Program-made: the position numbers and the translations under genes | The notes under the pieces: model-generated | Told to the model about the DNA's origin: nothing | Database searches by the model: none | The model's input: the letters and a program-made list of their open reading frames with translations, nothing else | In this document: positions 2,452 to 38,219 of the stretch, one piece after another | How the letters are laid out: each line of letters begins with the position of its first letter | Numbering within the stretch: the stretch's first letter is position 1 | NCBI GenBank assembly: GCA_964468965.1 | Contig: CAYXXA010000005.1 | Coordinates: 1 to 39,785, forward strand | Length of the DNA stretch: 39,785 bases | Direction: 5' to 3' | From: an uncultured Candidatus Peribacteria bacterium | Lineage (GTDB): Bacteria > Patescibacteriota > Gracilibacteria > UBA4473

Positions 2452-3357
2452 TTAATTTCGAGCATCAGACCAATTTTTCCAGGTTACAAGTGCTGGTGCC
2501 GCGATAAATATTGACGAATAAGTCCCTACTACAATACCTAAAGTTAAGGCTAAAATAAAGTAGAAAATAGACTCAGCACCATAAAAGAGCAAACCAAGTA
2601 GTGGAAGAAGGGTTGATATTGACGTAAACAACGATCGTCTAAGTGTCTGTTGTATTGATTTTTCTACCGTGTCCTCAAAGGTTTCAGATCCTTTCTGTAA
2701 TCGAATATTTTCTCTTACTCTGTCCAGTATAACGATGGTATCATTGATAGAAAACCCAAGTGTTGCTAGTAGTGCTGTAATAAATGGCAGATCGAGTTCT
2801 ATTCCTGAAACAGCGCCAAGTACGGTGAAAATACCCAAAACAATAATAATATCGTGGAAAAGAGCAATAATCGCCACGCCTCCAAATCGCCATGGATTGA
2901 TAGCCGCTGGCACTTTACGAAAAGCAAAAGCGACAAATAGAATCATCCCAAGTAACGCAATCCCGATCGCCCAAAAGGCTTTTTCTTTAAAACTTGCCCC
3001 AATATTTGAATCTACTTTTCTAAATGATTTTTCTGTAAAATCACCAACCGTGTTTTTTAGATCTGAGGCAATTGATTGAATAACCTTATCATCAAGATCT
3101 TCTATGGTAATCAAATAGGTACTATCATCTGATTTTTGAATTTGAACGCCTTGAGTAAGAGTTGATTGTTGTGCAAAGAAGTCTTTTAAATCCTTTGTTG
3201 TTATCGTTTTATCCTGAAATTGAATATCCCATCTTGTTCCTCCTGTGAAATCCAATCCAAGATTTAATCCAAAAGTTACTATCGCTAATAAGCTAGCCAA
3301 AACCAACGTTATAGAGATAGTAAACCAAAGTTTTCGAGTTTTTGTAATATTGATCAT
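2452..3357 (-). CDS. secF: Protein translocase subunit SecF
   Basis: GLNLGLDFTGG, ALFHD, LGFSINDTIVILDRVREN, GTYSSIFIA. Confidence 0.97.
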   Translation of the reverse strand: MINITKTRKLWFTISITLVLASLLAIVTFGLNLGLDFTGGTRWDIQFQDKTITTKDLKDFFAQQSTLTQGVQIQKSDDSTYLITIEDLDDKVIQSIASDLKNTVGDFTEKSFRKVDSNIGASFKEKAFWAIGIALLGMILFVAFAFRKVPAAINPWRFGGVAIIALFHDIIIVLGIFTVLGAVSGIELDLPFITALLATLGFSINDTIVILDRVRENIRLQKGSETFEDTVEKSIQQTLRRSLFTSISTLLPLLGLLFYGAESIFYFILALTLGIVVGTYSSIFIAAPALVTWKNWSDARN

Positions 3358-3374
3358 GAGTATTAAATTATCTA

Positions 3375-5573
3375 TTATTTTTTAGCTTTTCTTTTACGAA
3401 CTTTCGCTCCAGCAACCTTTTTCCCAATCTCTGATTCAGCAACTCCAAAAAGTGCTGGTTTTTGTAATGGTTTAAAGAGAAGGAGAAATCGTAGTAAATT
3501 TCGTGAAACAATAATTGCGGTAAACATAGAAAGTAGTGTTCCAACGATAAGAGTAACCGCAAACCCTTTGATAACGGAACTCCCTAGAAAGAAAAGAATC
3601 ACACAAATAAGTAATGTCGTGGAATTTGAGTCTCGGATAGCCGTCCATGCTCGCTCAAAGCCAAGATCAATTGATTGCGAAAGCGTTCGTCCTTTTCTGA
3701 GTTCTTCTTTCATTCTTTCAAAGATAAGGATATTTCCATCAACCGCTAACCCTATGGAAAGCGCGATTCCAGCCGCTCCTGCTAAAGAAAGAACGATTGG
3801 TCCACCAAAGGCTTCTGGCCAAACTTTTAAAATAGCGATAAAGAGAACCGTATAAATAACAAGGGCAATCGAAGCAATTAGTCCAGGAAATCGGTAGAAC
3901 AAAATCATAAAAATCATCGTGGCAAATAAACCAAGAGCTCCAGCCTTTAAACTTTTTTCCAACTGATCTTTTCCTAGTTGTGCCTGAATAGTTGTCTGCC
4001 CTGAAAGCTTCACCGGTGCATCAATCGCCCCAAGATTCAAACGGTCAGCTAAATCATGGGCTGAATTAAAGTCAAAGCTTCCTGTGATTTGTGCGTCACG
4101 TCCAATAATTTGCTCTCGCACTGTGGGTTGAGTTATCCAATTCCCTCCAACTTTAATCCCTAGTCTACATGGCTGTTTTTGATCTTCACTTCCCCCACAA
4201 CTTCGACTCGCTACATGTTTCGTCAATTCCGCAAACATATCACCCCCCTCTTTATCAAATCTCAAATTCACTAAAGGTTGCCCTACTTGATCATATCCAA
4301 CCGTTGCTAGTTCTAATTGAGATCCGCCAAGTGGTGTTTTTACCCAGCTTACATTTGATTTATCCCAAACGATCATATCGTAAGTATACTTCGGTTCTGT
4401 AACCGTTTTTTTCTCTTCTTTGGTAACTCCCGTAACCTCAATAACATGAAAACCAAAATCAGTTTCAACTACATGATCGATCAACTGAGGGGCATCAACC
4501 GCAAATACGGCTTCTTCAAACGGTGGCACCATTTGCCCTTTCCCAAATTCTCCAAGCTCACCATAACTTCGTTGAGCCGCTCCCTCCGTACTTAATTCTT
4601 TTGCTAAATCACTAAATTCTTCCGTTCCTTCTTCTTTCAATTTTGCAAGTATTTCTTCTGCCTTAGCCTTTGCCTCTTCTTTTGTTTTGTATTTTACATC
4701 CTCACCCGCCTTCATTGCCCCTGTGTAACCAAATAGAATATGTCGTGCCTTTCGTTTCGCTTCTACATTTTTTTCTCGTTCAACCGATTCGACTTTCGTT
4801 ACCTTTGCCAACGCGAAAACATCTCGTGCATAGGGCAACCCATCAAACTCTATTTTCCCATCCTCTGTTACTTTGTACTCTGGTTGAATCGTCGTTTCAA
4901 TAACCTGTGGAACAATATTCCCTTCCCCTGTTTTTGTGATTAGTTCCGCTAATTTTATATCTGATATTTCATCGCTAAAGGTCGGTCTAAATGATTCATA
5001 GGTAACCAAATCATCTTCTTTGGCTAGTTCTTTCCCCTTCGGTGTAAAAGTTTCTGGTGTTAGATTTTTGAGAATAGCGGCTATTTTAAATTTAAGTTTT
5101 TTAACTAAATCTGGATTTTCTTCAAAAAACTCTAGTCGATTATCTTGTTCTGCATCCCTTTTGGCTTTTTCTACATCCGTATTTGGAGGCATTTGAATCA
5201 ATACATGCTCTTCTTTCTCATTATTAACAAAAACAGAAGATCGTTTTACCACGATTTCACCAACCCCAGCTGGATTCACTCTTTTCTCCAAAGCATCACG
5301 AACTGACTCTACAATTTGATTAACATTGACATCATTTTGTGGATCATCATCACTATTTTGAGCTTTGATTTCTGTTAAATCCACACGATAATCCAATTCC
5401 GTCCCCCCTTGAAGGTCGAGCCCAAGGGCGATTTTAAATTTTTCTAAGGTTTTGGTGATTGAACTTTCTGGTCCAAATTGCTGACGATAGAAAGAGGCTG
5501 GTGCTGCCAAAATAGCAGCTATCAATGTAATAGCCACCACTATAATAAAACGATTGATAATCTGTTGTTTCAT
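3375..5573 (-). CDS. secD: Protein translocase subunit SecD with inserted parvulin-type PPIase domain
   Basis: LGLDLQGG, GLAVDGNILIFERMKEE, AIRDSN.TT, KGFAVTL. Internal ARHILF...GELG.F.KGQMVPPFEEAVF...ETDFGFHVIEV at about 4431-4760. Confidence 0.95.
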   Translation of the reverse strand: MKQQIINRFIIVVAITLIAAILAAPASFYRQQFGPESSITKTLEKFKIALGLDLQGGTELDYRVDLTEIKAQNSDDDPQNDVNVNQIVESVRDALEKRVNPAGVGEIVVKRSSVFVNNEKEEHVLIQMPPNTDVEKAKRDAEQDNRLEFFEENPDLVKKLKFKIAAILKNLTPETFTPKGKELAKEDDLVTYESFRPTFSDEISDIKLAELITKTGEGNIVPQVIETTIQPEYKVTEDGKIEFDGLPYARDVFALAKVTKVESVEREKNVEAKRKARHILFGYTGAMKAGEDVKYKTKEEAKAKAEEILAKLKEEGTEEFSDLAKELSTEGAAQRSYGELGEFGKGQMVPPFEEAVFAVDAPQLIDHVVETDFGFHVIEVTGVTKEEKKTVTEPKYTYDMIVWDKSNVSWVKTPLGGSQLELATVGYDQVGQPLVNLRFDKEGGDMFAELTKHVASRSCGGSEDQKQPCRLGIKVGGNWITQPTVREQIIGRDAQITGSFDFNSAHDLADRLNLGAIDAPVKLSGQTTIQAQLGKDQLEKSLKAGALGLFATMIFMILFYRFPGLIASIALVIYTVLFIAILKVWPEAFGGPIVLSLAGAAGIALSIGLAVDGNILIFERMKEELRKGRTLSQSIDLGFERAWTAIRDSNSTTLLICVILFFLGSSVIKGFAVTLIVGTLLSMFTAIIVSRNLLRFLLLFKPLQKPALFGVAESEIGKKVAGAKVRKRKAKK

Positions 5574-5782: not shown

Positions 5783-8332
5783 ATGTCCCAACCTTTTGTA
5801 AATCTTCATACACATTCTTTTTACTCTATCCTCCAGAGCATGATGTCTCCACAGGATATTTTGGAAAAAGCAAAAACATTACAGTGTCCCGCCGTAGCAC
5901 TTACCGACAACGGTGTTGGATACGGACTGATTGACTTTTATAAAAAAGCCGAAAAGGTAGGTAACATAAAACCTATCCTTGGTGTAGAGCTCGCTATCGC
6001 TAAAGATTCTCGATTTGAGAAACGAACAGGAATTGATGGAAACGAGGGATATTTAGTTTTGATAGCACAAAACTTTAAAGGTTATGAAAATCTACTAAAA
6101 CTTATTTCCATTGCCCAGCTTGAAGGCCTTTTTCAGCAACCAAGAATTGATTGGGAATGCCTATCACAAAATCAGGAAGGGCTTATCGCTCTTAGTGGTG
6201 GAACAAACGGACTCTTAGGAAAAGAACTTCAAAATAATAACCCAGATCGAGCTGAAACTTATCTAAAAAAGTGTATTGAAATCTTTGGCCAGAAAAACTT
6301 TTATCTTGAATGTGTTGCTAAGCCTGGAGAATCACAAAAAAATCTAAATCTATGGAATCTAATACAGGCTCAAAAAAATAATTTAGAAATTGTCGTCAGT
6401 TCTGATGCTCGATTTGCCGATACAGATGATGAAGAAGCCGCTGACACCCTCTACTGTATTGGAAAAAACTATACCTTATCTGATCCCCATCGTGAAAAAA
6501 TAATGCATCAAGGACATTTCAAATCATGGCAAGAAATATCCCAAGAACTTGATTATATAGAAGCCGATATTTTAGAAAAAGCCCGTCAGAATTCTCTTGA
6601 TATTGCCAAAGACATTGATCTGAAATTGGAATTTAACCAATCCCTCCTCCCTCATTTTGAAGTGGAAAAAGGTGAAACTGAAGCTTCACAGCTAGAAAAA
6701 AATTGCCAGGCTGGATTTATAAAACGAGGATTTAATAAAATCCTTTCCGCCAAACAACAACAAACCTATCAAGACCGACTTAAATACGAACTTCAAATTA
6801 TCGGAAGAATGGGATTTGATGCTTATTTTTTGATCGTTGAGGACTTTATGAAATTTGCGAAGGAAAGCGGTATTGCGGTTGGACCAGGCCGTGGATCTGC
6901 TGCAGGTTCACTGGTTTCTTATCTTTTGGAAATTACTAATATTGATCCTATTGAATACGATCTACTCTTCGAACGATTTTTAAATCCAGAACGAATCTCA
7001 ATGCCTGATATCGATATTGATTTTTCTGATGAAAGACGAGATGAGGTTATGAATTACGTTATTGAAAAATACGGTATCGAAAAAGTTTCTAAAGTCTGTA
7101 CCTTTGGAACACTAGCCGCGAAAGCCGCTCTCAAGGATGTTGGTCGGGCTCAAGGTGTAGATTTTAGCGAAATGAATGCCATGACCAAAGTCATGCCCAA
7201 TACACCTGGATTTAAACTAAAAGACGCTGAAGAACTTTCTGAATTTAAAGATTTATTAAAAAAGAAACCACATCTTAACAAAGTCCTAGCCATTGCCAAA
7301 AAATTAGAAGGCTGTGTTCGACATGTTTCCGTTCACGCCTGTGCGGTAATTATTGGCGCTGATGATCTGAGTAAGTTTTGCCCGATCCAGTGGGCACCTG
7401 GGGCTGAAGAATTAAAAATAACACAATACCCTTATGAACAATTAGAGTCTATCGGCCTTCTAAAAATGGATTTTCTTGGACTTCGAAACCTTTCTATTAT
7501 CGAAAAGACCGTTAATAATATTCGTCATAGTACTGGCCAAGATATTGACCTCAATACGATTCCCATTAATGACAAAAAAACATTCGAAACGACCTTTGCC
7601 GCGGGCGAAACAACAGGTGTTTTTCAGTTTGAATCAGCTGGAATGCGACGATATCTTAAAGAACTTAAACCAACAGAATTTGAGGATTTAGTCGCTATGA
7701 ATGCCCTCTATCGTCCCGGTCCGATGGAGTACATTCCGCAATACATTGAAGGAAAACATGACCCCAAAAAGGTAAAATACATGCATCCTGCACTTGAGCC
7801 TATTCTGAATAAAACCTATGGGATTGCGGTTTATCAAGAACAAGTTCTCCGAATTGCACGAGATTTTGCTGGTTTTTCCCTTGGCGAGGCCGATATCCTT
7901 CGAAAAGCAATTGGAAAAAAAATTGCGTCAATTCTGAACGAACAACGACAAAAAATAATCGATGGAGCGTTTAATAAGGGGTTTGATAAAAAAACCGCGG
8001 CTAAAATATTTGATGAAATCATCGTTCCCTTTTCTGGATATGGTTTCAACCGAAGCCACGCTGTTTGCTATGCTCGAATTGCCTATGAAACCGCTTACCT
8101 TCGTGCCAATTATCCCGTGGAATTCATGGCCGCCATGATGACCACCGACCGAAATAATACCGATCGAATTGTTCTTGAAATGAATGAATGCCAGGCGATG
8201 GGAATTGATGTTTTACCACCTAGTATCAACGAATCGGGAAGCTACTTTACCGTCATTTGTGATAATCATGACCAGTTAACAATTTCCTCCGAAAAACCTG
8301 ATTTGGAAGCCGTAAAAGGTTCAGGAAAATAA
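5783..8332 (+). CDS. dnaE: DNA polymerase III alpha subunit, C-terminally truncated or split (PHP + catalytic core)
   Basis: GPGRGSAAGSLV, FERFLNPER.SMPDIDIDF, KMDFLGL, GVFQFES, ALYRPGP, YGFNRSHA. Stops at aa 849, shortly after LPPSINES..FTV. Confidence 0.93.
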   Translation: MSQPFVNLHTHSFYSILQSMMSPQDILEKAKTLQCPAVALTDNGVGYGLIDFYKKAEKVGNIKPILGVELAIAKDSRFEKRTGIDGNEGYLVLIAQNFKGYENLLKLISIAQLEGLFQQPRIDWECLSQNQEGLIALSGGTNGLLGKELQNNNPDRAETYLKKCIEIFGQKNFYLECVAKPGESQKNLNLWNLIQAQKNNLEIVVSSDARFADTDDEEAADTLYCIGKNYTLSDPHREKIMHQGHFKSWQEISQELDYIEADILEKARQNSLDIAKDIDLKLEFNQSLLPHFEVEKGETEASQLEKNCQAGFIKRGFNKILSAKQQQTYQDRLKYELQIIGRMGFDAYFLIVEDFMKFAKESGIAVGPGRGSAAGSLVSYLLEITNIDPIEYDLLFERFLNPERISMPDIDIDFSDERRDEVMNYVIEKYGIEKVSKVCTFGTLAAKAALKDVGRAQGVDFSEMNAMTKVMPNTPGFKLKDAEELSEFKDLLKKKPHLNKVLAIAKKLEGCVRHVSVHACAVIIGADDLSKFCPIQWAPGAEELKITQYPYEQLESIGLLKMDFLGLRNLSIIEKTVNNIRHSTGQDIDLNTIPINDKKTFETTFAAGETTGVFQFESAGMRRYLKELKPTEFEDLVAMNALYRPGPMEYIPQYIEGKHDPKKVKYMHPALEPILNKTYGIAVYQEQVLRIARDFAGFSLGEADILRKAIGKKIASILNEQRQKIIDGAFNKGFDKKTAAKIFDEIIVPFSGYGFNRSHAVCYARIAYETAYLRANYPVEFMAAMMTTDRNNTDRIVLEMNECQAMGIDVLPPSINESGSYFTVICDNHDQLTISSEKPDLEAVKGSGK

Positions 8333-8408: not shown

Positions 8409-9491
8409 ATGAAAAAATACAGTATTCTACTCCTTATTATCATTGGTTTGACCTTTACCGCACAAGCACGTGAAGCTTTACGTGCTGATGATGTCATCAA
8501 GGTTCGAGATGGTAAAGTCGTGGACACAGGAATCTTGAGTGACGAAAAAGGAACCATCTTCCTCGAGTTTATTAAAGGTGATTTTGTAAACTATGCGAAA
8601 GATAAACAACCCTTTACAGGAGAAATTCTTCCCCCTGCCATTATTGATAAACCCTTAAAACTACCACGATACCGAATGCGTGAAATCCTAAGTTTTGAAC
8701 TCTTAACCGATAACGTTGAAACCGTTACGTTTGTTGATCGGTATTCCCTTATGCACCCAAAAGAATATCTTCGAACAACGTTGGCTAACCCAGATGGACT
8801 AATCCATGGAAGCGGTATAAAATTTCTCACACGAATCTACGATGAAGACAAGTTTGGACTTCCTACACTTTGGGTACTAGAAACCGAAAAAGAAAGCGTT
8901 CTAAAAACAGAACGAAAAAAGTATTGGAAAAAAATTGGAGGAAAGCTTGTTGAAACCGAAGAGAGTGGCGTAAAAGTTTTCTCGGCTGTACTAAATCGAA
9001 CAGGTGTTTATGGTTTATTTGATGAAGATCCAACCCCCTACTATAGTCCAAACACACCTCTAGAAACGGTTCAAAAAGTAGAAGCCTCACCTTATCCTAG
9101 TGTTGTGCCTCAAGCTCCAGCACTACCTATTACTCCACCACAAACCAATACGTCTCAAGCCACTGACGAAGATTTCTACTTTGACGAAAATGACAACCTT
9201 CAACTCGTTCCCGCTGTCAACGAACGTAAAAATAATGTACCAGTTATCGATAACCGAATCATTCCGGCTATTCAAACCCCTATTGAAGTAGTCCCCGCGG
9301 TCGATACGCCGAAAGTCCCACCCGTAAGTGAGTTTCAAAATTTACAATCTAATAATCCTAATATCAAAACTCTTCCAGTTACAGGAGCTAGTTTAACACA
9401 AACACCATCTTCTCATTTTCCTTTTGTTCTACTGCTTGCTTTTGGACTACTTGGCGGAAGTTTTTATTTGGCCTTTAAAAAACAATATTAG
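8409..9491 (+). CDS. Secreted surface protein with LPxTG-type sorting signal
   Basis: Signal peptide (MKKYSILL...AQA), Pro/Thr/Val-rich linker, LPVTG (9372-9386), hydrophobic helix, KKQY tail. Confidence 0.8.
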   Translation: MKKYSILLLIIIGLTFTAQAREALRADDVIKVRDGKVVDTGILSDEKGTIFLEFIKGDFVNYAKDKQPFTGEILPPAIIDKPLKLPRYRMREILSFELLTDNVETVTFVDRYSLMHPKEYLRTTLANPDGLIHGSGIKFLTRIYDEDKFGLPTLWVLETEKESVLKTERKKYWKKIGGKLVETEESGVKVFSAVLNRTGVYGLFDEDPTPYYSPNTPLETVQKVEASPYPSVVPQAPALPITPPQTNTSQATDEDFYFDENDNLQLVPAVNERKNNVPVIDNRIIPAIQTPIEVVPAVDTPKVPPVSEFQNLQSNNPNIKTLPVTGASLTQTPSSHFPFVLLLAFGLLGGSFYLAFKKQY

Positions 9492-12128: not shown

Positions 12129-12998
12129 TTATTTCCCCACCCACGATGTTTTCCATTTCGCCCACCATTTCATTTTTGGAAAAAAGATCCCTAAAACGGA
12201 AGCTATAAAAATTAGGACCTTTAACACTATTCGTTTCCCTCCTCGTGGTAAAATTTTAATTTCAGGATGAAGTTGTTCAAAAACTAGTGCATTTTTTCGA
12301 GCTGAAAGGGTTTTTAGTAGCACAGAATCAAGATCAGGTACATCCAGTCGGTAAATAATAGAACGTTCGTTATAGGATAATTTAAAACCTTTTTGTGCCA
12401 ATCGATACCCAAATTCAGCATCTTCAAATCCCCAACCTTTGAAATTATTATCAAATTTTAACATAAGTTCTTCGCTCCCCTTCTTCCCTTTCCCTATTTT
12501 TAGAAATGATTTCTTCAGACTGATATTACTCGTATAAAAATGTCGCCAATCCGCTCCATTTTTTTTAATTTTTGAGTAGTCAAACTGTGGTCCATTTTCT
12601 AGAAATTGAGTAAAATCAGTTTGACACTTCCAGATTACTTTTCCTAGTAATCCCCTGTTGGGTGACTTATTTTTCTCATGAAATTCAACAATTTGTTTCA
12701 GCCAATCCTTATCTGGAATGCCATTATCTCCTATAAAAATAAGAATGTTGCCTATTGATTTTTCAATACCAACGTTTCTTGCTCCTCCCGCATAAACCTG
12801 ATGATCTGTTGCGTACAAACGCAACCCTTTAATATACTTTGAAAGTTTCGTATCAACTGGTCTTCCGTCAAAAATTACCAGTATTTCTGGCTTTATATTC
12901 TTAAATCCCTCACACTCGGAAATTCCTTTCAAAACCGTTTTCAGGCTCTCCCTTCCAAGCGTAGGAATGATGATTGAATACTTCATTTTCTTATTCAC
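12129..12998 (-). CDS. Glycosyltransferase family 2
   Basis: YSIIIPT.GR, ARNVG, FIGDN, TSNISLKK, GWGFEDAEFGYRL. Start may be ATG 12986. Confidence 0.9.
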   Translation of the reverse strand: MNKKMKYSIIIPTLGRESLKTVLKGISECEGFKNIKPEILVIFDGRPVDTKLSKYIKGLRLYATDHQVYAGGARNVGIEKSIGNILIFIGDNGIPDKDWLKQIVEFHEKNKSPNRGLLGKVIWKCQTDFTQFLENGPQFDYSKIKKNGADWRHFYTSNISLKKSFLKIGKGKKGSEELMLKFDNNFKGWGFEDAEFGYRLAQKGFKLSYNERSIIYRLDVPDLDSVLLKTLSARKNALVFEQLHPEIKILPRGGKRIVLKVLIFIASVLGIFFPKMKWWAKWKTSWVGK

Positions 12999-13731
12999 TC
13001 AGAATTGATTCATCGACCTCAAATCCACCAAAAACATCATCCACATCCTCTGCTTCCTCTAATTTTTCAATAAATGATTCTACTTTTTCAAGTGTTTCTT
13101 TGTCAGTAATCATAATCGGATCTTTTGCTCGGTATTCCGGATGAAATTTTTTAATCGTTACCACCTTTTCTAGTCTATCACGTACCTTTCCAAGTTGATC
13201 AAAAGCCGTAATAACTTCTGATACCCCTTGCTCGTAATGAAAGTCATCAGCACCTGCCTCAATAACTATTTCAAACAAAGCTTCTTCATCCTTATCGCCA
13301 TTCTCAATGAGAATAACCCCAAGATGATTAAAAAGAAACTTAACCGCCCCCGCACTTCCAATTTTTCCACCATTCTTTTCAAAGGCCACTCGAACACTCG
13401 GAAAAGTTCTATTTGGATTATCGGTTAGAGCTCCTACTAAAAACGGAATTCCCGCTGGCCCATAACCTTCGTATAACTGTTCTGAATACTGTACCCCATC
13501 TTTATCCGCTCCTGATAGTTTTTTCAAAATCTTCTCAATATTACTTTTGGGCACCCCATCTGATTTGGCATTCGATATAGCATTTTTGAGTGGCGTGTTG
13601 GTTTCTGGATTTGGATCGTTTTGCCCAATAACCATCAAAATCTTACTGTGTTTTGTTAGTACTTTCCCACGAGCCGCATCATTAGCTGCTTTTTTGTGAC
13701 GAATTGAATGCCATTTACTATGTCCGGACAT
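12991..13731 (-). CDS. yebC: YebC/PmpR family protein
   Basis: MSGHSKWHSIRHKK, YEGYGPAG, TDNPNRT. Confidence 0.96.
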   Translation of the reverse strand: MSGHSKWHSIRHKKAANDAARGKVLTKHSKILMVIGQNDPNPETNTPLKNAISNAKSDGVPKSNIEKILKKLSGADKDGVQYSEQLYEGYGPAGIPFLVGALTDNPNRTFPSVRVAFEKNGGKIGSAGAVKFLFNHLGVILIENGDKDEEALFEIVIEAGADDFHYEQGVSEVITAFDQLGKVRDRLEKVVTIKKFHPEYRAKDPIMITDKETLEKVESFIEKLEEAEDVDDVFGGFEVDESILSE

Positions 13732-29970: not shown

Positions 29971-30021
29971 CACTTTGATTGTGGAGAAAATACCAAATCC
30001 GTCAATTAAATAGCCCTATAA

Positions 30022-31197
30022 TCACGAATCCATAATATGAGGATTCTTTTTGAGAATAATCCTAAAAATAAACGGAAAAATAACCGTTGTCGCAATCGCC
30101 ATAAAAACAATCGCGGAATACAAATCTTTTGAGATAATCCCTGCCGACAACGCAATATGGGCAATCACCAGTTCCATCACGCCACGAGAATTCATCCCCC
30201 ATCCAATGAGATGTAACTGCTGCCACGAAAGATCGGTAAAAGGCTTAACCAAAAACGTCCCCAATAATTTCCCAACAATGGCGGTTACCAAAACAATAAT
30301 CGTTAATATCGGTGCGTTTAAAAAAACATGATAATCAAAACTCAGACCAATGTTAACAAAGAAAAAAGGAACAATAAACGCAAAAATAAAAAGACGTAGA
30401 TTTCGAGATTCTATTTCTCGATTTTCTTCTTTAAAAAATGATTTCTGCAAAATAATCCCCGCAATAAAAGCACCTAACAGTGACCCCAACCCTACAAATT
30501 CTGAGAAAATAGAAATCGCAAGTCCGATAATAATCATCGCACTCAAGAGGGGAATCTGTCCCTCATTTTTTTGAATTTTCTGAATCAACTGGGGAATGAA
30601 AATAAAAGAAAGAAGTAAAAATAAAATAAATAAAACCATCCTTATTCCAAAAGTAGCGAGTCCAACCTCCCCCATAGATTGATGAGCAAAAAACAAAATC
30701 ACACTCAAAAATATAATCTCAAAGACATCATCAAAAATACCAGCTCCCAAAATAATGCTCGCCAACTTGGTCTTCATTTTCTTCATTTCGAGGAGTAATG
30801 CCACCGTTGTCCCCTCAGCCGTAACGGACAAACACGCACCTAAAACCACCGATCCCTTCCACGACATCCCCAAAAAATATCCCAAAACAAGTCCAATCAC
30901 AAAAGGAACAACCGCAGCCGACATCGCTATCAAAAAGGCTGTTTTTTTATTTTTTTTCAGCTCATTAAGATTGAGTTCAAATCCTGTCAGTAGGAGTAAA
31001 AAAATGACCCCCAACCCCGAAAAAGTATCAATAACCGTTAGGCTTTCTCCCGTAAATAAGTGACTTAATAAAGGAATTGTCAACAATAAACTAATCGTTA
31101 ATTGCCCGATTACTCGTGGATAGTGAAACTTTCGTCCGATTTCTGCACCGATAAAAGTTAATAACAACGCAATTGTAATACTCGAAAGTGTATCCAT
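30022..31197 (-). CDS. Cation:proton antiporter (CPA2/NapA-like)
   Basis: About 12 TMs, LGVIFLLLLTGFE, SVTA, GAGIFDD, GAFIAG, PFFFVNIG, GMNSRG; TGA stop. Confidence 0.92.
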   Translation of the reverse strand: MDTLSSITIALLLTFIGAEIGRKFHYPRVIGQLTISLLLTIPLLSHLFTGESLTVIDTFSGLGVIFLLLLTGFELNLNELKKNKKTAFLIAMSAAVVPFVIGLVLGYFLGMSWKGSVVLGACLSVTAEGTTVALLLEMKKMKTKLASIILGAGIFDDVFEIIFLSVILFFAHQSMGEVGLATFGIRMVLFILFLLLSFIFIPQLIQKIQKNEGQIPLLSAMIIIGLAISIFSEFVGLGSLLGAFIAGIILQKSFFKEENREIESRNLRLFIFAFIVPFFFVNIGLSFDYHVFLNAPILTIIVLVTAIVGKLLGTFLVKPFTDLSWQQLHLIGWGMNSRGVMELVIAHIALSAGIISKDLYSAIVFMAIATTVIFPFIFRIILKKNPHIMDS

Positions 31198-35704: not shown

Positions 35705-36436
35705 ATGAAAAAAGATGTTATTATAAGTAATTTGGTAGGTTTTGGATACACTGCCACTGAAGCACGAATCTACCTAACGGCACTTGAATGTGGTACAGCT
35801 CCTGCTTCACAAATTGCGGAACACCTCAATCTCAATAGAGTTACAACCTATGGAACTTGTCAAAAACTTGTTAAAAAAGGACTTCTTTACAACTCTAAGA
35901 TAAAGGACACCAAACACTTTACCGCTATTGAACCTGAACTGTTTTTTGAAGAACAACGCCAAAAAATAAATATACTGGCCTCTTCCATCCCTTTTCTAAA
36001 AGAATTATCAACACAACATACTATTCGCCCAAAAGTACAACTTTTCGAAGGGATAGACGAACTCAAAAAGGCTTATAAAAAAACACTCTCCGCCAAAACT
36101 GAAATTTTAAATTATGCTAACTCTCGAAATATTCGAGATCACTGGCCAAACTACGATAAGGAATATGTTCGTCAACGAGCTAAACGAAAAATATTTCTTC
36201 GCGGTATCGCTCCAGATGACCACGCTGGACGAATGGTACAAAAATCCGACAAAGATTTTTATCGAGAAACTCGTCTATTCCCCAAAGATCTTTTCCGTGT
36301 TGAGAATGAAATTAATATCTTTGATGATAAGATTCTTATTGCCTCATTTGAACCTCGAAGTTTCGTAATCTTAATACAATCCTCTACCGTTGCAGAAACA
36401 CAACGGCAAATCTTCAACCTTGCGTGGCATCAATGA
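35705..36436 (+). CDS. TrmB-family transcriptional regulator (wHTH + PLD-like effector domain)
   Basis: GYTATEARIYLTALE.G...ASQIA..LNLNRVTTY...LVKKGL, FEG, EINIFDDKI, F..AW; TGA stop. Confidence 0.88.
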   Translation: MKKDVIISNLVGFGYTATEARIYLTALECGTAPASQIAEHLNLNRVTTYGTCQKLVKKGLLYNSKIKDTKHFTAIEPELFFEEQRQKINILASSIPFLKELSTQHTIRPKVQLFEGIDELKKAYKKTLSAKTEILNYANSRNIRDHWPNYDKEYVRQRAKRKIFLRGIAPDDHAGRMVQKSDKDFYRETRLFPKDLFRVENEINIFDDKILIASFEPRSFVILIQSSTVAETQRQIFNLAWHQ

Positions 36437-36458
36437 GCTAGTCAAAATAAAAAACCTC

Positions 36459-38219
36459 TTATAAACTACTTTGGGGTTCTGTCTTCTCTTCAAGATCTGA
36501 TCCATTTGGCTCCATAGATACCGCTTCTTCTTTTATTGGTTTTAAAGGTGAAATATCAAGAGAAAAATAGGGAAAAATCCTTGATTTAACCACTATATCT
36601 TCCTTGTTAAACGTTGTGATAAAGGCATTTACCTTTTTATTAAAGAGTTGCAAATCCTCTTCCGTAATGTGTTCTGGCACCATAAGATCAAAGTTTACAA
36701 AAACTCGTTTCTGTCCTTCTTCCGATGTCCATCGAATATCCAAATTTTCTATTGAAAATTTATCACTAGTATTATCCTCAAAAAATTGAGCCCACCGTTG
36801 TTCAATTTCAGAAAACCAAATTTCATCCTCCGTTGGTTTTTTGGGAATAGTCGGTAACTCTCGTGTAGGCAGATCACCCCAAATAAATTTAATTTCTTTC
36901 TGAGGAAAAGCCTGCCGAACATTCTGCTCAATAAAATCTTGAGTTTTTTTATCCATAAAAACTCCTTTCTTTAGGGTATAAACGGTCTTAACCGACCATT
37001 TATTTTTTAATAATTCTAGAGCTTCCTGAGTAACAATCAGACCTTCTGGGAATTTTTGCTTAAAGAAAAACCTCGTTTTCTTGATCAGTTGATCATCCAT
37101 TTGAGGGGCGTTAGTATCACTCTGAATACTCGCGACTCGATCAATACTCAGATCAAGTCCAACCGATTTCCCTAGATGAGTGGAAAGTACTTCAGCTAAT
37201 TGATCTATTTTATCACGATAAAAAGGAATATTTTCTGGTAATTGCACATTACCCGTTAGTTTTATTTTTTGAGACTTAACCGTTCCCTTTACCATCAAAT
37301 TTGTAAGTTTAGCCGAGGGGATACTTTGACTGAGTTCATCAGTTACTAAATGGTTAATTTCCTTTTTAAAATCAAGATTATCTCGAATTTGTTGGAGACT
37401 TTTTCCCAACGTAAACATCAAAACAATCACAATCGAAATAAGCACCAGCAAACTCCTGACTGTTTCTTTCGTATTTACCTCATGGGGATTGAATCCATAA
37501 AAAATAAACATCAAAGCCCCTACCATCAAGATAGACGCAAGATTCGTAAACAGGAGAATAAAAGCCCCCCATGCCGCCATAAAATTCCCTAAAAACAATT
37601 CAATCCCAATAACCGAAATTGGTGGCATCAACGCTGTTGCCATCGCCACACCAGCGACACTCGCGTAAAGTCTTTTATTGGATAAAGCTAAAAACGCAAT
37701 CATCGCCGAAGCCACAGCAATAAAAAAATCAAGAAGATTGGGCTTTGTTCGTGATAAAATCTCTGTATTTTCAATCACAATCGGTAGGTAAAAACTCAAG
37801 ACAAAGCCAAGTAGTGCTCCTAGAGAAATACTCAAGAATAACACCTTAAACGATCGCCAAAATAAACCATGTCGCCCATTGGCAATCGCAAAGGCCATAG
37901 CTTGAATCGGACGTAATAGAGGCGCAATCAGCATGGCTCCAATAATCACCGCCACCGATCCCTGAATCAACCCAAAGGTCGCAATAATACTCGAAAGAAT
38001 CACTTCCATCCAATAAAGTCGTCCAGTCCGAACGCCCTCAACAACAAGTTTTGAAATCTCCGTCTTTCCCTCATCGGGTTGCTTGAGCCACGCGATTTTG
38101 GTAAACAACTGATCAATGACCCATGACCACTCCGCATCCAATGGAGCATCCAATTTACGACGAAAAAACTCCAAAAGTTTATAGTTTTTACGACGCAGAT
38201 AATCTTTTATTTTAGACAT
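36459..38219 (-). CDS. DUF389 / TIGR00341-family membrane protein with long extracytoplasmic extension
   Basis: IATFGL..SVAVIIGAMLIAPL, EILSRTKPNLLD..IAVAS, GVAMATALMPP, LFTNL. Confidence 0.88.
   Translation of the reverse strand: MSKIKDYLRRKNYKLLEFFRRKLDAPLDAEWSWVIDQLFTKIAWLKQPDEGKTEISKLVVEGVRTGRLYWMEVILSSIIATFGLIQGSVAVIIGAMLIAPLLRPIQAMAFAIANGRHGLFWRSFKVLFLSISLGALLGFVLSFYLPIVIENTEILSRTKPNLLDFFIAVASAMIAFLALSNKRLYASVAGVAMATALMPPISVIGIELFLGNFMAAWGAFILLFTNLASILMVGALMFIFYGFNPHEVNTKETVRSLLVLISIVIVLMFTLGKSLQQIRDNLDFKKEINHLVTDELSQSIPSAKLTNLMVKGTVKSQKIKLTGNVQLPENIPFYRDKIDQLAEVLSTHLGKSVGLDLSIDRVASIQSDTNAPQMDDQLIKKTRFFFKQKFPEGLIVTQEALELLKNKWSVKTVYTLKKGVFMDKKTQDFIEQNVRQAFPQKEIKFIWGDLPTRELPTIPKKPTEDEIWFSEIEQRWAQFFEDNTSDKFSIENLDIRWTSEEGQKRVFVNFDLMVPEHITEEDLQLFNKKVNAFITTFNKEDIVVKSRIFPYFSLDISPLKPIKEEAVSMEPNGSDLEEKTEPQSSL

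What the first reader, a model, noticed from the sequence alone, without database searches (positions are those of the whole stretch)
4330..5110. SecD with a built-in parvulin foldase inserted in its P1 head
Seen: between LEFFEE and the resumption of the SecD head (WVKTPLGGSQLE) lie about 250 extra residues. They include a complete parvulin (about 4431-4760: ARHILF, F..LAKELS.E, GELG, MVPPFEEAVF, TDFGFHVI) preceded by a possible degenerate second copy (ELAKE...GEGNIVPQVIET...FALAKVTKV). Known: SecDF pulls substrates through SecYEG, and PpiD/PrsA/SurA parvulins are normally separate chaperones; PpiD acts at the E. coli translocon. Inference: a fused pull-and-fold translocon subunit, suited to a reduced genome exporting Pro-rich Fn3/Ig surface proteins. 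I do not know of a description of this fusion.
Basis: partly seen in the sequence, partly recalled or inferred. Interest (0 to 1): 0.82.

Follow-up and report, generated by a model that had tools for sequence, protein, structure and literature searches.

The report
SecD carrying built-in parvulin foldase domains
The SecD subunit of this small-genome bacterium's protein-export machine has two proline-isomerase (parvulin) domains built into its outer moving part, a conserved design I found described in no paper, which would let one protein both pull and help fold exported proteins.

Summary
The minus-strand ORF 3375..5573 (732 aa) is a bona fide SecD with secF directly downstream. About 250 residues (aa 153-404) are inserted between the last P1-base strand (LEFFEE) and the first P1-head strand (W..T.LGG).

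The insert holds two parvulin-fold domains. The distal one (aa 273-384) is a complete Rotamase domain (E 1.6e-25). Both catalytic His and the Leu/Met/Phe pocket are invariant in 84 of 84 homologues.

This is the only parvulin in the 97%-complete genome. The architecture is not a chimera and not rare. It occurs across Gracilibacteria/Peregrinibacteria and many other Patescibacteria (CPR) lineages, as single, double and SecDF-fused forms. Databases name all of them simply "SecD".

The single forms are circularly permuted parvulins. The double form is probably a canonical parvulin nested inside a permuted one.

Nine full-text searches found no description. The likely function is a translocon-tethered PrsA/PpiD/SurA-like foldase acting on chains as SecDF pulls them out; this is untested. 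The genome also encodes a lipoprotein cyclophilin.

The parts
3375..5573 (-). secD ORF, 732 aa plus stop
   Evidence: TIGR01129 320 bits (cut-off 244). The AF2 model (pLDDT 89.5) aligns to SecDF 5yhf with Z 23.2, rmsd 4.2, 400 residues.
5118..5573 (-). aa 1-152: N-terminal TM helix, GG motif and N-terminal half of the P1 base, ending in strand LEFFEE
   Evidence: Helix aa 2-23 and strand 147-152 in the model. SecD_1st aa 89-151 and Sec_GG 50-65, both sub-threshold. L147 and F149 are invariant in 84 of 84.
4800..5117 (-). aa 153-258: proximal, degenerate parvulin-fold domain (unit 1) that starts at helix alpha1, has no N-terminal beta1 and no catalytic His, and carries an extra beta-hairpin
   Evidence: hhalign 86% / E 4.7e-6 to unit 2. 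VIA-align top 20 rows are all parvulin domains, Z 9.2-5.1, with reference chains aligned from their alpha1 onwards. Pfam finds nothing. Foldseek finds nothing at E<=0.001.
4758..4799 (-). aa 259-272: ascending linker, predicted as the continuation of a long beta-strand (250-270)
   Evidence: DSSP of the full-length model. Pairing with the descending linker is inferred, not seen, because no coordinates were available.
4422..4757 (-). aa 273-384: distal, complete canonical parvulin (unit 2). H278 is codon 4740-4742 and H376 is codon 4446-4448. Other key residues: S328-T329-E330, L340, M348, F352, T371.
   Evidence: Rotamase_3 E 1.6e-25. H278, H376, L340, M348, F352, G338, G341, F343, F373 and G374 are present in 84 of 84; S328 in 83 of 84; T371 is T in 71 and S in 13. 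E330 aligns with Asp of C. symbiosum PinA (2m1i), Cys of Pin1At (1j6y) and Asp of Listeria PrsA1 (5htf).
4362..4421 (-). aa 385-404: descending linker plus closing strand YTYDMIVW. It is aligned with the His-bearing 'xHILI' strand that follows beta4 in single-parvulin SecDs, and is probably the displaced beta1 of unit 1.
   Evidence: Strand 387-404 in the model. Alignments. Permutation test. The assignment to unit 1 is inferred.
4014..4361 (-). aa 405-520: P1 head subdomain and return to the base
   Evidence: SecDF_P1_head aa 413-518, E 1.4e-18. W410, L415 and G417 are invariant.
3375..4013 (-). aa 521-732: TM2-TM6, with D612 aligned to T. thermophilus SecDF D340
   Evidence: SecD_SecF_C aa 525-697. 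phmmer alignment to 3aqp_A. D612 is invariant in 84 of 84.
2452..3357 (-). secF, 301 aa, 17 nt downstream of secD on the same strand
   Evidence: SecD_SecF_C E 7.3e-53, Sec_GG E 2.1e-8.

Best explanation
This is a functional SecD whose extracytoplasmic P1 domain carries a two-domain parvulin module spliced into the linker that joins the P1 base to the mobile P1 head.

Shown:
- the architecture and the insertion site;
- the parvulin fold of both units;
- conservation of the catalytic-type residues in the distal unit only;
- that this is the sole parvulin of the genome;
- that the design is conserved across many CPR lineages.

Inferred:
- The module lies outside the membrane, by SecD topology.
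- The distal unit is an active, non-phospho-specific PPIase of the PrsA/Par10 kind.
- The proximal His-less unit acts as a peptide-binding or scaffold domain, like SurA P1 or the PpiD parvulin.
- The module rides on or next to the head, which captures the emerging chain and swings under proton-motive force. Exported proteins would therefore meet a holdase/prolyl isomerase as they leave SecYEG.

In effect a PrsA/PpiD/SurA-type helper has been hard-wired into the translocon motor. Topologically, the double form is most likely a canonical parvulin nested in the beta4-beta1' hairpin of a circularly permuted parvulin, with the two joined by a two-stranded beta-ribbon.
For: Architecture:
- Pfam and NCBIfam domain calls.
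- Insertion site against insert-free SecDs.
- High-confidence full-length model, pLDDT 89.5, that superposes on SecDF over 400 residues.

Catalytic competence of unit 2:
- Both His, Leu, Met and Phe are invariant in 84 of 84.
- An acidic residue occupies the Cys/Asp position in the window and in 59 of 84.

Unit 1 as a parvulin fold.

Sole parvulin in the genome:
- PF13616, PF00639 and PF13145 each hit only this locus in the 1.06-Mb, 97%-complete genome.
- SurA_N_3 gives no hit and SurA_N_2 only 13.7 bits.

Conservation:
- 90 of the 120 listed homologues carry Rotamase plus SecD families.
- 120 of 120 do so when a single-parvulin form is the query.
- At least 43 of 401 sampled Patescibacteria genomes have the parvulin in a 551-1088-aa frame. 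18 of these were checked by Pfam and all 18 are SecD or SecDF.
- 12 of 12 genomes of the window's own family have exactly one Rotamase_3 hit, in a 705-814-aa frame.

Not an assembly artefact: an independent Logan contig of 5,287 nt covers 3300-5525 with no difference. The gene also occurs in single-contig genomes (G214).

Permutation: in 7 of 7 single forms the canonical profile matches positions ~25-116 and then positions 2-13 after them. It matches end to end only when the insert is doubled.

Nested topology:
- Strands 250-281 (32 aa) and 374-404 (31 aa) are of equal length in the model.
- H278 and H376 are co-invariant.
- Ascending and descending linker lengths go together in 13 of 15 double forms: 22/25, 19/21, 15-16/18.

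Functional logic from the literature:
- SurA's two parvulin domains are predicted to dock on the SecDF P1 head (PMC9987972, passages read).
- PrsA-like PPIase proteins sit on SecYEG-SecDF in Mycoplasma pneumoniae (bioRxiv 10.1101/2025.04.25.650208 and 10.1101/2024.09.05.611430, passages read).
Against: - No activity, localisation or expression data exist.
- The Cys/Asp position is Glu here, which is unusual. In 25 of 84 homologues the loop reads S-T/N-G-P with no acidic residue.
- One double-form SecDF (L031, G165) has Arg and Asn in place of both His, so catalysis is dispensable in at least one lineage.
- The genome has a lipoprotein cyclophilin that could supply extracytoplasmic PPIase activity.
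- 37 of 121 genomes of the class have no Rotamase_3 hit, and most sampled Patescibacteria (259 of 401) gave no hit with the insert. The module is therefore not essential for CPR SecD function.
- The nested topology and the position of the module relative to the SecY exit rest on secondary-structure strings and conservation. I could not inspect coordinates.
- Foldseek alone did not recognise unit 1.
- Spearman rho for the linker lengths over all 15 forms is only 0.50, p 0.058, and the forms fall into about three related groups.
Confidence: 0.68

Rival explanations
1. The parvulin domains are non-catalytic. They enlarge or stiffen the P1 head/hinge and serve only as a substrate-binding (holdase) surface or lever arm, like the inactive parvulin of PpiD or SurA P1. 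The conserved His pair is kept for fold stability.
For: Unit 1 has lost both His in every lineage examined. L031 has lost both His in unit 2 as well. 25 of 84 homologues lack an acidic or Cys residue in the catalytic loop. A lipoprotein cyclophilin is available for PPIase activity. VIA-align ranks the PpiD and SurA P1 domains among the best structural matches of unit 1.
Against: Unit 2 keeps both His, the Leu/Met/Phe proline pocket and Ser/Thr in 84 of 84 sequences that are as little as 34% identical overall. 14 of 15 diverse double forms keep both His. Such invariance is what is seen in active parvulins; this last point is recalled, not tested.
Confidence: 0.22
2. The module is a docking adaptor for something other than Sec substrates, for example the sortase/cell-wall machinery, YidC, or a host-contact structure of these episymbiotic bacteria.
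For: The genome has a sortase and an LPXTG-type protein 3 kb away (window 8409..9491). CPR bacteria are host-attached (recalled). Parvulin folds are used as protein-protein modules elsewhere.
Against: Nothing links the insert to these partners: no conserved extra neighbour gene was seen, and the insert varies (none, one or two units) among lineages that all have Sec. The conserved residues are those of the proline-binding site, not a new surface.
Confidence: 0.07
3. Assembly chimera or mis-called ORF that joins a parvulin gene to secD.
For: The source is a metagenome-assembled genome of 77 contigs.
Against: One uninterrupted frame. An independent contig spans both junctions with 0 differences. 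The same architecture is found in hundreds of independently assembled sequences, including closed single-contig genomes. The model is high-confidence and contiguous.
Confidence: 0.01

Closest known systems
Canonical SecDF (Thermus thermophilus 3AQP/5YHF, Deinococcus radiodurans 5XAN/5XAP)
   Same: The TM core, the P1 base and the P1 head align over about 400 residues (Z 23). The TM4 Asp (D612 = Tt D340) is conserved. secF is the neighbour.
   Different: About 250 extra residues (two parvulin-fold domains) sit in the base-to-head linker. That linker is only 10-25 residues in insert-free Patescibacteria SecDs. SecD and SecF are separate genes here.
SurA (E. coli): chaperone with two parvulin domains, P1 inactive and peptide-binding, P2 active
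   Same: A tandem of one degenerate and one catalytic-type parvulin. SurA P1 (2pv1, Z 7.9) and P2 (4g2p, Z 7.0) are structural matches of unit 1. SurA's parvulins are predicted to contact the SecDF P1 head (PMC9987972).
   Different: No SurA N/C chaperone core. The module is covalently embedded in SecD rather than soluble. Unit 1 lacks an N-terminal beta1 (permuted or nested). The organism is probably monoderm-like and has no BAM pathway; that point was not tested here.
PpiD-YfgM at the SecYEG lateral gate or exit (E. coli)
   Same: A membrane-tethered parvulin-containing chaperone that acts at the translocon on emerging chains (PMC9643414, abstract seen in listings). PpiD (8zht) is the second-best structural match of unit 1 (Z 8.8).
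   Different: PpiD is a separate protein with its own TM anchor and SurA-like chaperone domains. Its single parvulin is inactive (recalled). Here the anchor is SecD itself, and one unit keeps the catalytic residues.
PrsA lipoprotein foldase of Firmicutes
   Same: An extracytoplasmic parvulin foldase for secreted proteins in bacteria with sortase/LPXTG surfaces. Unit 2 has the same S-T-(D/E) catalytic-loop type as Listeria PrsA1. NCBIfam PrsA models give weak hits over aa 210-395.
   Different: Scores are far below the PrsA cut-offs (45.9 against 360 bits). There is no NC dimerisation/chaperone domain and no lipobox. It is not a separate gene.
Mycoplasma pneumoniae 'dome' translocation-folding complex (Mdp444/436/489 on SecYEG-SecDF)
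   Same: Another genome-reduced, wall-less or thin-walled lineage in which PrsA-like parvulin domains are held stably over the Sec exit next to SecDF, with only one catalytically intact copy (bioRxiv 10.1101/2025.04.25.650208 and 10.1101/2024.09.05.611430, passages read).
   Different: There the association is non-covalent, with giant lipoproteins forming a chamber. Here it is a gene-level insertion into SecD. Neither preprint mentions such a fusion in the passages returned (term counts: 'fusion' 0, 'Patescibacteria' 0).

Membership tests
SecD (TIGR01129 / PF21760 + PF22599 + PF02355) | Sequence model score above the curated cut-off | tested here: met
   TIGR01129 320.3 bits against a cut-off of 244.4. 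P1_head 67.3 against 27. SecD_SecF_C 52.7 against 20.5. SecD_1st only 18.9 against 27.
SecD (TIGR01129 / PF21760 + PF22599 + PF02355) | Topology: one N-terminal TM helix, a large P1 domain, five further TM helices, RND-like fold | tested here: met
   Model helices 2-23 and 533-697. Z 23.2, rmsd 4.2, 400 residues aligned to SecDF 5yhf.
SecD (TIGR01129 / PF21760 + PF22599 + PF02355) | Conserved TM4 aspartate of the proton path (T. thermophilus D340; its role is recalled) | tested here: met
   D612 aligns with D340 of 3aqp_A and is invariant in 84 of 84.
SecD (TIGR01129 / PF21760 + PF22599 + PF02355) | Partner SecF encoded alongside | tested here: met
   ORF 2452..3357 (-), SecD_SecF_C E 7.3e-53.
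SecD (TIGR01129 / PF21760 + PF22599 + PF02355) | PMF-dependent stimulation of translocation | not testable with these tools
   Needs biochemistry.
Parvulin PPIase (PF00639 / PF13616), unit 2, aa 273-384 | Profile match above the gathering score over the whole domain | tested here: met
   Rotamase_3 90.3 bits, profile 7-114 of 116. Rotamase 69.7 bits, profile 1-96 of 97.
Parvulin PPIase (PF00639 / PF13616), unit 2, aa 273-384 | His...His pair, Cys/Asp-position residue, Ser/Thr, and Leu/Met/Phe proline pocket (Pin1 H59, C113, S154/T152, H157, L122, M130, F134; the numbering is partly recalled and partly) | tested here: met
   H278, H376, L340, M348 and F352 in 84 of 84. T371 is T or S in 84 of 84. 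E330 sits at the Cys/Asp position in 59 of 84, with no acidic residue in 25 of 84.
Parvulin PPIase (PF00639 / PF13616), unit 2, aa 273-384 | Prolyl cis/trans isomerase activity | not testable with these tools
   Needs an enzyme assay.
Parvulin fold, unit 1, aa 153-258 (+395-404) | Profile match above the gathering score | tested here: not met
   0 Pfam families at E<=1 for aa 143-272. Orthologous segments of other lineages do pass: L010, L020, L021 and L016.
Parvulin fold, unit 1, aa 153-258 (+395-404) | Four-stranded sheet with four helices, superposable on solved parvulins | tested here: met
   The top 20 VIA-align rows are all parvulin domains, Z 9.2-5.1, 73-96 residues aligned. Foldseek found none at E<=0.001. 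hhalign 86%.
Parvulin fold, unit 1, aa 153-258 (+395-404) | Catalytic His pair | tested here: not met
   The positions aligned with the His of beta4 are Ala/Val/Asn etc.. The closing strand has Asp-Met in place of His-Ile.
PrsA / SurA / PpiD chaperones | SurA-N / trigger-factor-like chaperone domain flanking the parvulin | tested here: not met
   No PF13624, PF13623 or PF09312 hit in the protein at E<=0.1. The best PrsA model scores 45.9 bits against a cut-off of 360.
PrsA / SurA / PpiD chaperones | Independent polypeptide with its own signal, lipobox or TM anchor | tested here: not met
   The domains lie inside the SecD reading frame, between SecD segments.

The most novel reading that the evidence does not exclude
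CPR bacteria have repeatedly elaborated a circularly permuted parvulin that is spliced into the hinge linker of SecD. In the double form a canonical, catalytically intact parvulin is nested inside the permuted one on a rigid beta-ribbon. The proton-driven swing of the P1 head would therefore physically carry a prolyl isomerase/holdase to and from the SecYEG exit, giving a mechanically coupled pull-and-fold machine. As a natural 'Rosetta-stone' fusion, it would also show that the SecDF head is the physiological docking site of the separate parvulin chaperones (SurA, PpiD, PrsA) in other bacteria.
Probability: 0.35. Interest if true: 0.8.

Novelty: new variant of a known kind. Interest (0 to 1): 0.62.

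Why it matters
How proteins that leave SecYEG are handed to folding helpers is still argued. The E. coli evidence that SurA and PpiD work at SecDF/SecYEG is indirect, and the Mycoplasma 'dome' complex has only recently been described.

A conserved gene fusion of SecD with parvulin domains, present in many CPR lineages, is independent evolutionary evidence that prolyl-isomerase chaperones act at the SecDF P1 head. It also gives a compact single-polypeptide system in which the coupling could be studied by structure and mutagenesis.

The fusion shows two protein-architecture oddities. One is a circularly permuted parvulin; one full-text search for 'parvulin' plus 'circular permutation' returned nothing. 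The other is a probable domain-in-domain-in-domain nesting.

For annotation, thousands of database entries called just 'SecD' hide a PPIase. Surveys that score CPR genomes for 'PrsA' may be counting or missing this.

Tried and rejected
- **Foldseek on unit 1.** The search of the isolated unit 1 model against the PDB gave no match at E<=0.001. The fold was recognised only by VIA-align wide.
- **Origin of unit 2.** A maximum-likelihood tree of 30 parvulin cores (88 columns) was meant to decide whether unit 2 arose by internal duplication or by capture of a stand-alone PrsA-type gene. It was unresolved: 13 of 27 inner branches were open and unit 1 rows sat on very long branches. No conclusion is drawn.
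- **Family size.** phmmer of the insert against 1.84 billion representatives gave 16,602 hits at E<=0.001, 1,833 at 1e-10 and 27 at 1e-30. Most of the 150 listed are 170-490-aa multi-parvulin proteins. Only P0246, P0079 and P0331 match the query end to end in 722-752-aa proteins, plus P0063 (820 aa) in three stretches. At 50% clustering this says little about the number of fusions.
- **Expression.** No RNA holder was listed for the gene. The only holder is one DNA run of a hydrothermal-vent metagenome, probably the source sample. Its contig is an independent assembly, not independent data.
- **Nested versus tandem-permuted topology.** The isolated unit 1 model loses strand 190-199, which does not discriminate between the two topologies.
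- **Range outside Patescibacteria.** Not tested.
- **Complex prediction.** Not used, because no inter-protein binding claim is made.
- **Other explanations considered.** Assembly chimera is rejected.
- **Supplements.** Supplementary files of the papers were not opened. The homology tables of the two Mycoplasma preprints could in principle list SecD-parvulin fusions among their hits.
Full report
**What is in the window**

On the minus strand, ORF 3375..5573 encodes 732 aa. It is followed 17 nt downstream by a 301-aa ORF, 2452..3357. The second ORF is SecF (SecD_SecF_C E 7.3e-53). The first is SecD: NCBIfam TIGR01129 scores 320 bits against a cut-off of 244. The match is split in two, and the second stretch (aa 395-694) starts at profile position 114 of 397.

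Pfam places SecD_1st at aa 89-151 (weak), SecDF_P1_head at 413-518 and SecD_SecF_C at 525-697. Between them lies a PPIC-type rotamase: Rotamase_3 at aa 265-382, E 1.6e-25, and Rotamase at 278-381, E 4.2e-19.

The organism reads TGA as sense. A Na+/H+ exchanger frame (30016..31197) matches its Pfam profile end to end only when one in-frame TGA is read through under table 25. secD itself has no TGA. Homologues that carry names are from 'Candidatus Gracilibacteria'.

**The insertion site**

Three Patescibacteria SecDs without any insert (449-468 aa; L034-L036) run from the base strand 'L.F.E' to the head strand 'F..T.L.G' in 10-25 residues. The window protein has about 250 residues there, aa 153-404. 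The module therefore replaces the variable linker between the P1 base and the P1 head. It does not sit inside the head.

A full-length AlphaFold2 model built on 84 homologues is confident: mean pLDDT 89.5, with no segment below 50. It superposes on solved SecDF structures over about 400 residues (5yhf Z 23.2, rmsd 4.2; 5xan Z 23.3; 3aqp Z 19.1). That is the whole SecD part minus the insert. The TM4 aspartate that aligns with T. thermophilus D340 is D612, invariant in 84 of 84. Its role in the proton path is recalled, not tested.

**The distal unit is a complete parvulin with catalytic-type residues**

In the 84-sequence alignment (34-82% identity to the window protein), these residues are present in 84 of 84: H278, H376, L340, M348, F352, G338, G341, F343, F373 and G374. 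S328 is present in 83 of 84, and position 371 is Thr in 71 and Ser in 13.

phmmer alignments to solved parvulins put E330 opposite three known catalytic-loop residues:
- the Asp of Cenarchaeum PinA (2m1i, 'SID');
- the Cys of Arabidopsis Pin1At (1j6y, 'SDC');
- the Asp of Listeria PrsA1 (5htf, 'STD').

The loop is S-T-E in 59 of 84 sequences and S-T/N-G-P, with no acidic residue, in 25 of 84. There is no Pin1-like basic phosphate loop, so the domain looks like the non-phospho-specific PrsA/Par10 type. That classification is recalled.

**The proximal unit is a degenerate parvulin**

Pfam sees nothing in aa 143-272. Four other lines of evidence agree that the unit has the parvulin fold:
- The family profile of this segment aligns to the family profile of the distal unit with 86% probability, E 4.7e-6, over 93 columns, helix to helix and strand to strand.
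- It aligns to the equivalent segment of other lineages with 81% probability, E 1.2e-5.
- In those other lineages the segment is a Pfam-significant Rotamase: L021 9.2e-14, L020 4.2e-11, L010 5.9e-12, L016 5.1e-5. L022 and L017 are sub-threshold, and L012 and L009 give none.
- An AlphaFold2 model of aa 143-272 alone (pLDDT 86.7) found nothing with Foldseek. VIA-align against 48,161 PDB representatives gave parvulin-type PPIase domains in all of the top 20 rows: LIC12922 Z 9.2, PpiD 8.8, SurA P1 7.9, SurA P2 7.0, PrsA 7.2 and 6.3, Par10 5.4, PpiD parvulin 5.1. Unrelated folds begin at Z 4.2.

The reference chains are aligned from their first helix onwards (for example Par10 residues 13-92), so unit 1 has no N-terminal beta1. 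It has neither catalytic His in any lineage I looked at.

**Circular permutation and probable nesting**

Besides the double form, sampled Patescibacteria have SecDs of 547-581 aa with a single parvulin at the same site. All 7 tested by Pfam show SecD_1st, then Rotamase starting at profile position 7-19, then P1_head.

Their sequences read: base strand, alpha1 ... 'FG(Y/W)HII' (beta4, with His), a 10-14-residue loop, '(A/S)xHIL(I/F)' (a beta1-type strand with the other His), then the head. A profile of the canonical unit (117 positions) matches each of the 7 inserts at positions about 25-116, and then separately at positions 2-13/18 after that. When the insert is doubled, one match runs from position 2-8 to 113-116 across the joint, in 7 of 7. 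That is the signature of a circular permutation in which beta1 follows beta4.

In the double forms the order is:
1. unit 1 (alpha1 to beta4, no His);
2. a His-bearing beta1 ('ARHILF', H278);
3. unit 2 (alpha1 to beta4 'FGFHVIEV', H376);
4. a closing strand ('YTYDMIVW', aa 396-403) that aligns with the post-beta4 strand of the single forms.

Two topologies fit this order: two tandem permuted units, or a canonical unit 2 nested between beta4 and the displaced beta1 of a permuted unit 1. I favour nesting, for three reasons:
- H278 and H376 are both invariant, which makes sense only if they share one active site.
- The model has two long strands of equal length, 250-281 (32 aa, with a two-residue kink) and 374-404 (31 aa). 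This is as expected for one continuous antiparallel ladder running through unit 1, a ribbon and unit 2.
- The ascending and descending linkers change length together in 13 of 15 double forms: 22/25, 19/21 and 15-16/18. The two outliers are L012 and L019. Spearman rho over all 15 is 0.50, p 0.058, and the forms fall into about three related groups.

I could not inspect coordinates, so this is inference.

**Distribution**

*Protein searches.* With the insert region as query, 380 proteins reached E<=0.001. Of the 120 listed, 90 carry both Rotamase and SecD Pfam families, and 81 of them cover the whole insert. With a single-parvulin SecD as query, 120 of 120 listed do. The named ones come from Kuenenbacteria, Uhrbacteria, Buchananbacteria, Parcubacteria and 'Patescibacteria group'. 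ESM-Atlas clusters with SecD plus Rotamase are labelled Peregrinibacteriota, Magasanikiibacteriota, Falkowiibacteriota and Moraniibacteriota. Every source name is just 'protein translocase subunit SecD'.

*Phylum sample.* In 401 genomes of the phylum, 142 had a hit to the insert. By my hand count of the 150 listed matches (13 more were not listed), 35 genomes have it in a 668-1088-aa frame and 8 in a 551-616-aa frame. The rest are 250-480-aa stand-alone proteins. I checked 18 of these 43 by Pfam, and all 18 are SecD or SecDF with the rotamase between SecD_1st and P1_head. The 1,018-1,080-aa forms are SecD-SecF fusions that carry the module.

*Class sample.* In 121 genomes of the window's class, 84 have a Rotamase_3 hit. 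79 of those 84 have it in an open frame of at least 625 aa. I did not run Pfam on all of those frames. In the window's own family, 12 of 12 genomes have exactly one hit, in a 705-814-aa frame. 37 of 121 have none. Of four such genomes looked at:
- G165 turned out to have the module (L031, two Rotamase stretches).
- G199 has a weak trace.
- G127 has a 558-aa SecD with an unrecognisable insert.
- G031 gave no P1-head match.

*Other lineages.* Several genomes outside the class have both a fused and a stand-alone parvulin, for example G373, G253 and G281.

**Genome context**

In the window's genome (1.06 Mb, 77 contigs, 97% complete) PF13616, PF00639 and PF13145 each hit only this locus. SurA_N_3 gives nothing, and SurA_N_2 gives only a 13.7-bit sub-threshold hit.

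Other PPIases are present:
- a trigger-factor-like 419-aa FKBP protein;
- a 193-aa cyclophilin whose N-terminus is a lipoprotein signal with a Cys lipobox.

The SecD parvulin is therefore the only parvulin, but not the only likely extracytoplasmic PPIase. The genome has a sortase. ORF 8409..9491 in the window ends in LPVTG, a hydrophobic stretch and a basic tail. The organism thus displays sortase-anchored surface proteins, the setting in which PrsA works in Firmicutes (recalled).

**Artefact check**

The frame is uninterrupted. Logan's independent assembly of the one DNA run that holds the stretch has a 5,287-nt contig covering 3300-5525 with no differences at depth 12.6. That run is probably the source sample. 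The architecture also recurs in closed genomes and in hundreds of independent assemblies. A chimera is excluded.

**Mechanism**

SecDF is thought to use the proton-motive force to swing its P1 head between two forms, catching the chain that emerges from SecYEG and pulling it out. This is recalled; it is summarised in the passages.

The parvulin module is spliced into one of the two connections between the base and that head. The best-supported reading is that exported chains meet, at the motor itself, a peptide-binding parvulin (unit 1, like SurA P1 or the PpiD parvulin) and a prolyl isomerase (unit 2). The job done elsewhere by separate PrsA, PpiD or SurA would then be built in.

The literature gives the logic but not this fusion:
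- SurA binds the holotranslocon, and AlphaFold places both of its parvulin domains on the SecDF P1 head (PMC9987972, passages).
- PpiD-YfgM works at SecYEG (PMC9643414, abstract in listings).
- In Mycoplasma pneumoniae, PrsA-like proteins with one catalytically intact PPIC domain form a dome over SecYEG-SecDF (bioRxiv 10.1101/2025.04.25.650208 and 10.1101/2024.09.05.611430, passages).

Several findings count against a strictly catalytic role. One SecDF (L031) has Arg/Asn for both His. A quarter of homologues lack the acidic loop residue. The cyclophilin exists. Many CPR SecDs do without the insert. A holdase or lever-arm role without catalysis is the main rival, at about 0.2.

**Novelty**

Nine full-text searches returned no paper that describes a SecD-parvulin fusion or a permuted parvulin. 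The term sets were:
- SecD + parvulin;
- SecD / peptidyl-prolyl / fusion / Gracilibacteria;
- SecDF + P1 head + hinge;
- SecD + rotamase;
- SecDF + PPIase domain;
- parvulin + circular permutation;
- Patescibacteria + SecD + peptidyl-prolyl;
- CPR / SecDF / SecD / parvulin / PpiC / PrsA;
- SecD with CPR phylum names.

One CPR survey lists Sec components and PrsA separately (PMC9166423, one passage).

The parts are known families and the sequences are public, so I rate it a new variant of a known kind. It is of real interest to people working on translocation-coupled folding and on CPR cell envelopes.

Noticed in passing
window 30016-31197 (-), 12129-13046 (-), 35705-36517 (+): Three otherwise intact genes (Na+/H+ exchanger, GT2 glycosyltransferase, TrmB-like regulator) each need one in-frame TGA read as sense. 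The exchanger matches its Pfam profile 3-375 of 375 under table 25, so the organism uses the Gracilibacteria/SR1 code.
   Followed up: partly
window 5783-8332 (+): The dnaE-like ORF has only 849 aa (PHP, NTPase and finger domains) and ends at a TAA/TAG stop without the usual C-terminal parts. The next ORF (8409-9491) is unrelated.
   Followed up: no
window 8409-9491 (+): A 360-aa Pro-rich protein with an N-terminal signal-like segment and a C-terminal LPVTG + hydrophobic stretch + KKQY, i.e. a sortase sorting signal. It has no Pfam family. A sortase gene is present elsewhere in the genome (G000:C4:30686-31105).
   Followed up: partly
L003 1492-2073 (-) = G000:C3: The only cyclophilin of the genome is a 193-aa protein with a lipoprotein signal peptide (Cys lipobox), so it is a likely surface-tethered PPIase besides the SecD parvulin.
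   Followed up: partly
L023-L030 (G334, G267, G077, G295, G298, G376, G175, G321): These SecDs of 547-581 aa carry a single parvulin at the same site that is circularly permuted: the beta1 strand with its His follows beta4. The permutation test was positive in 7 of 7; L028 was not run through Pfam.
   Followed up: yes
L031 (G165:C6), SecDF of at least 1,007 aa: This double-parvulin SecDF has Arg and Asn in place of both catalytic His of unit 2. L018 (G379), of the same family f6, keeps His/His.
   Followed up: no
L009 850-3213 (+) (G273), protein aa ~400-510: This SecD has a further insert of about 110 aa inside the P1 head, with two long hydrophobic stretches that look like transmembrane helices. 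That is odd for a periplasmic subdomain.
   Followed up: no
L008 (G314) and P0057, P0063, P0067-P0069, P0071, P0075, P0076: Some Gracilibacteria-type SecDs have 70-100 extra, Glu/Lys-rich residues inside unit 2 (parvulin segment of 187-222 aa instead of 118).
   Followed up: no
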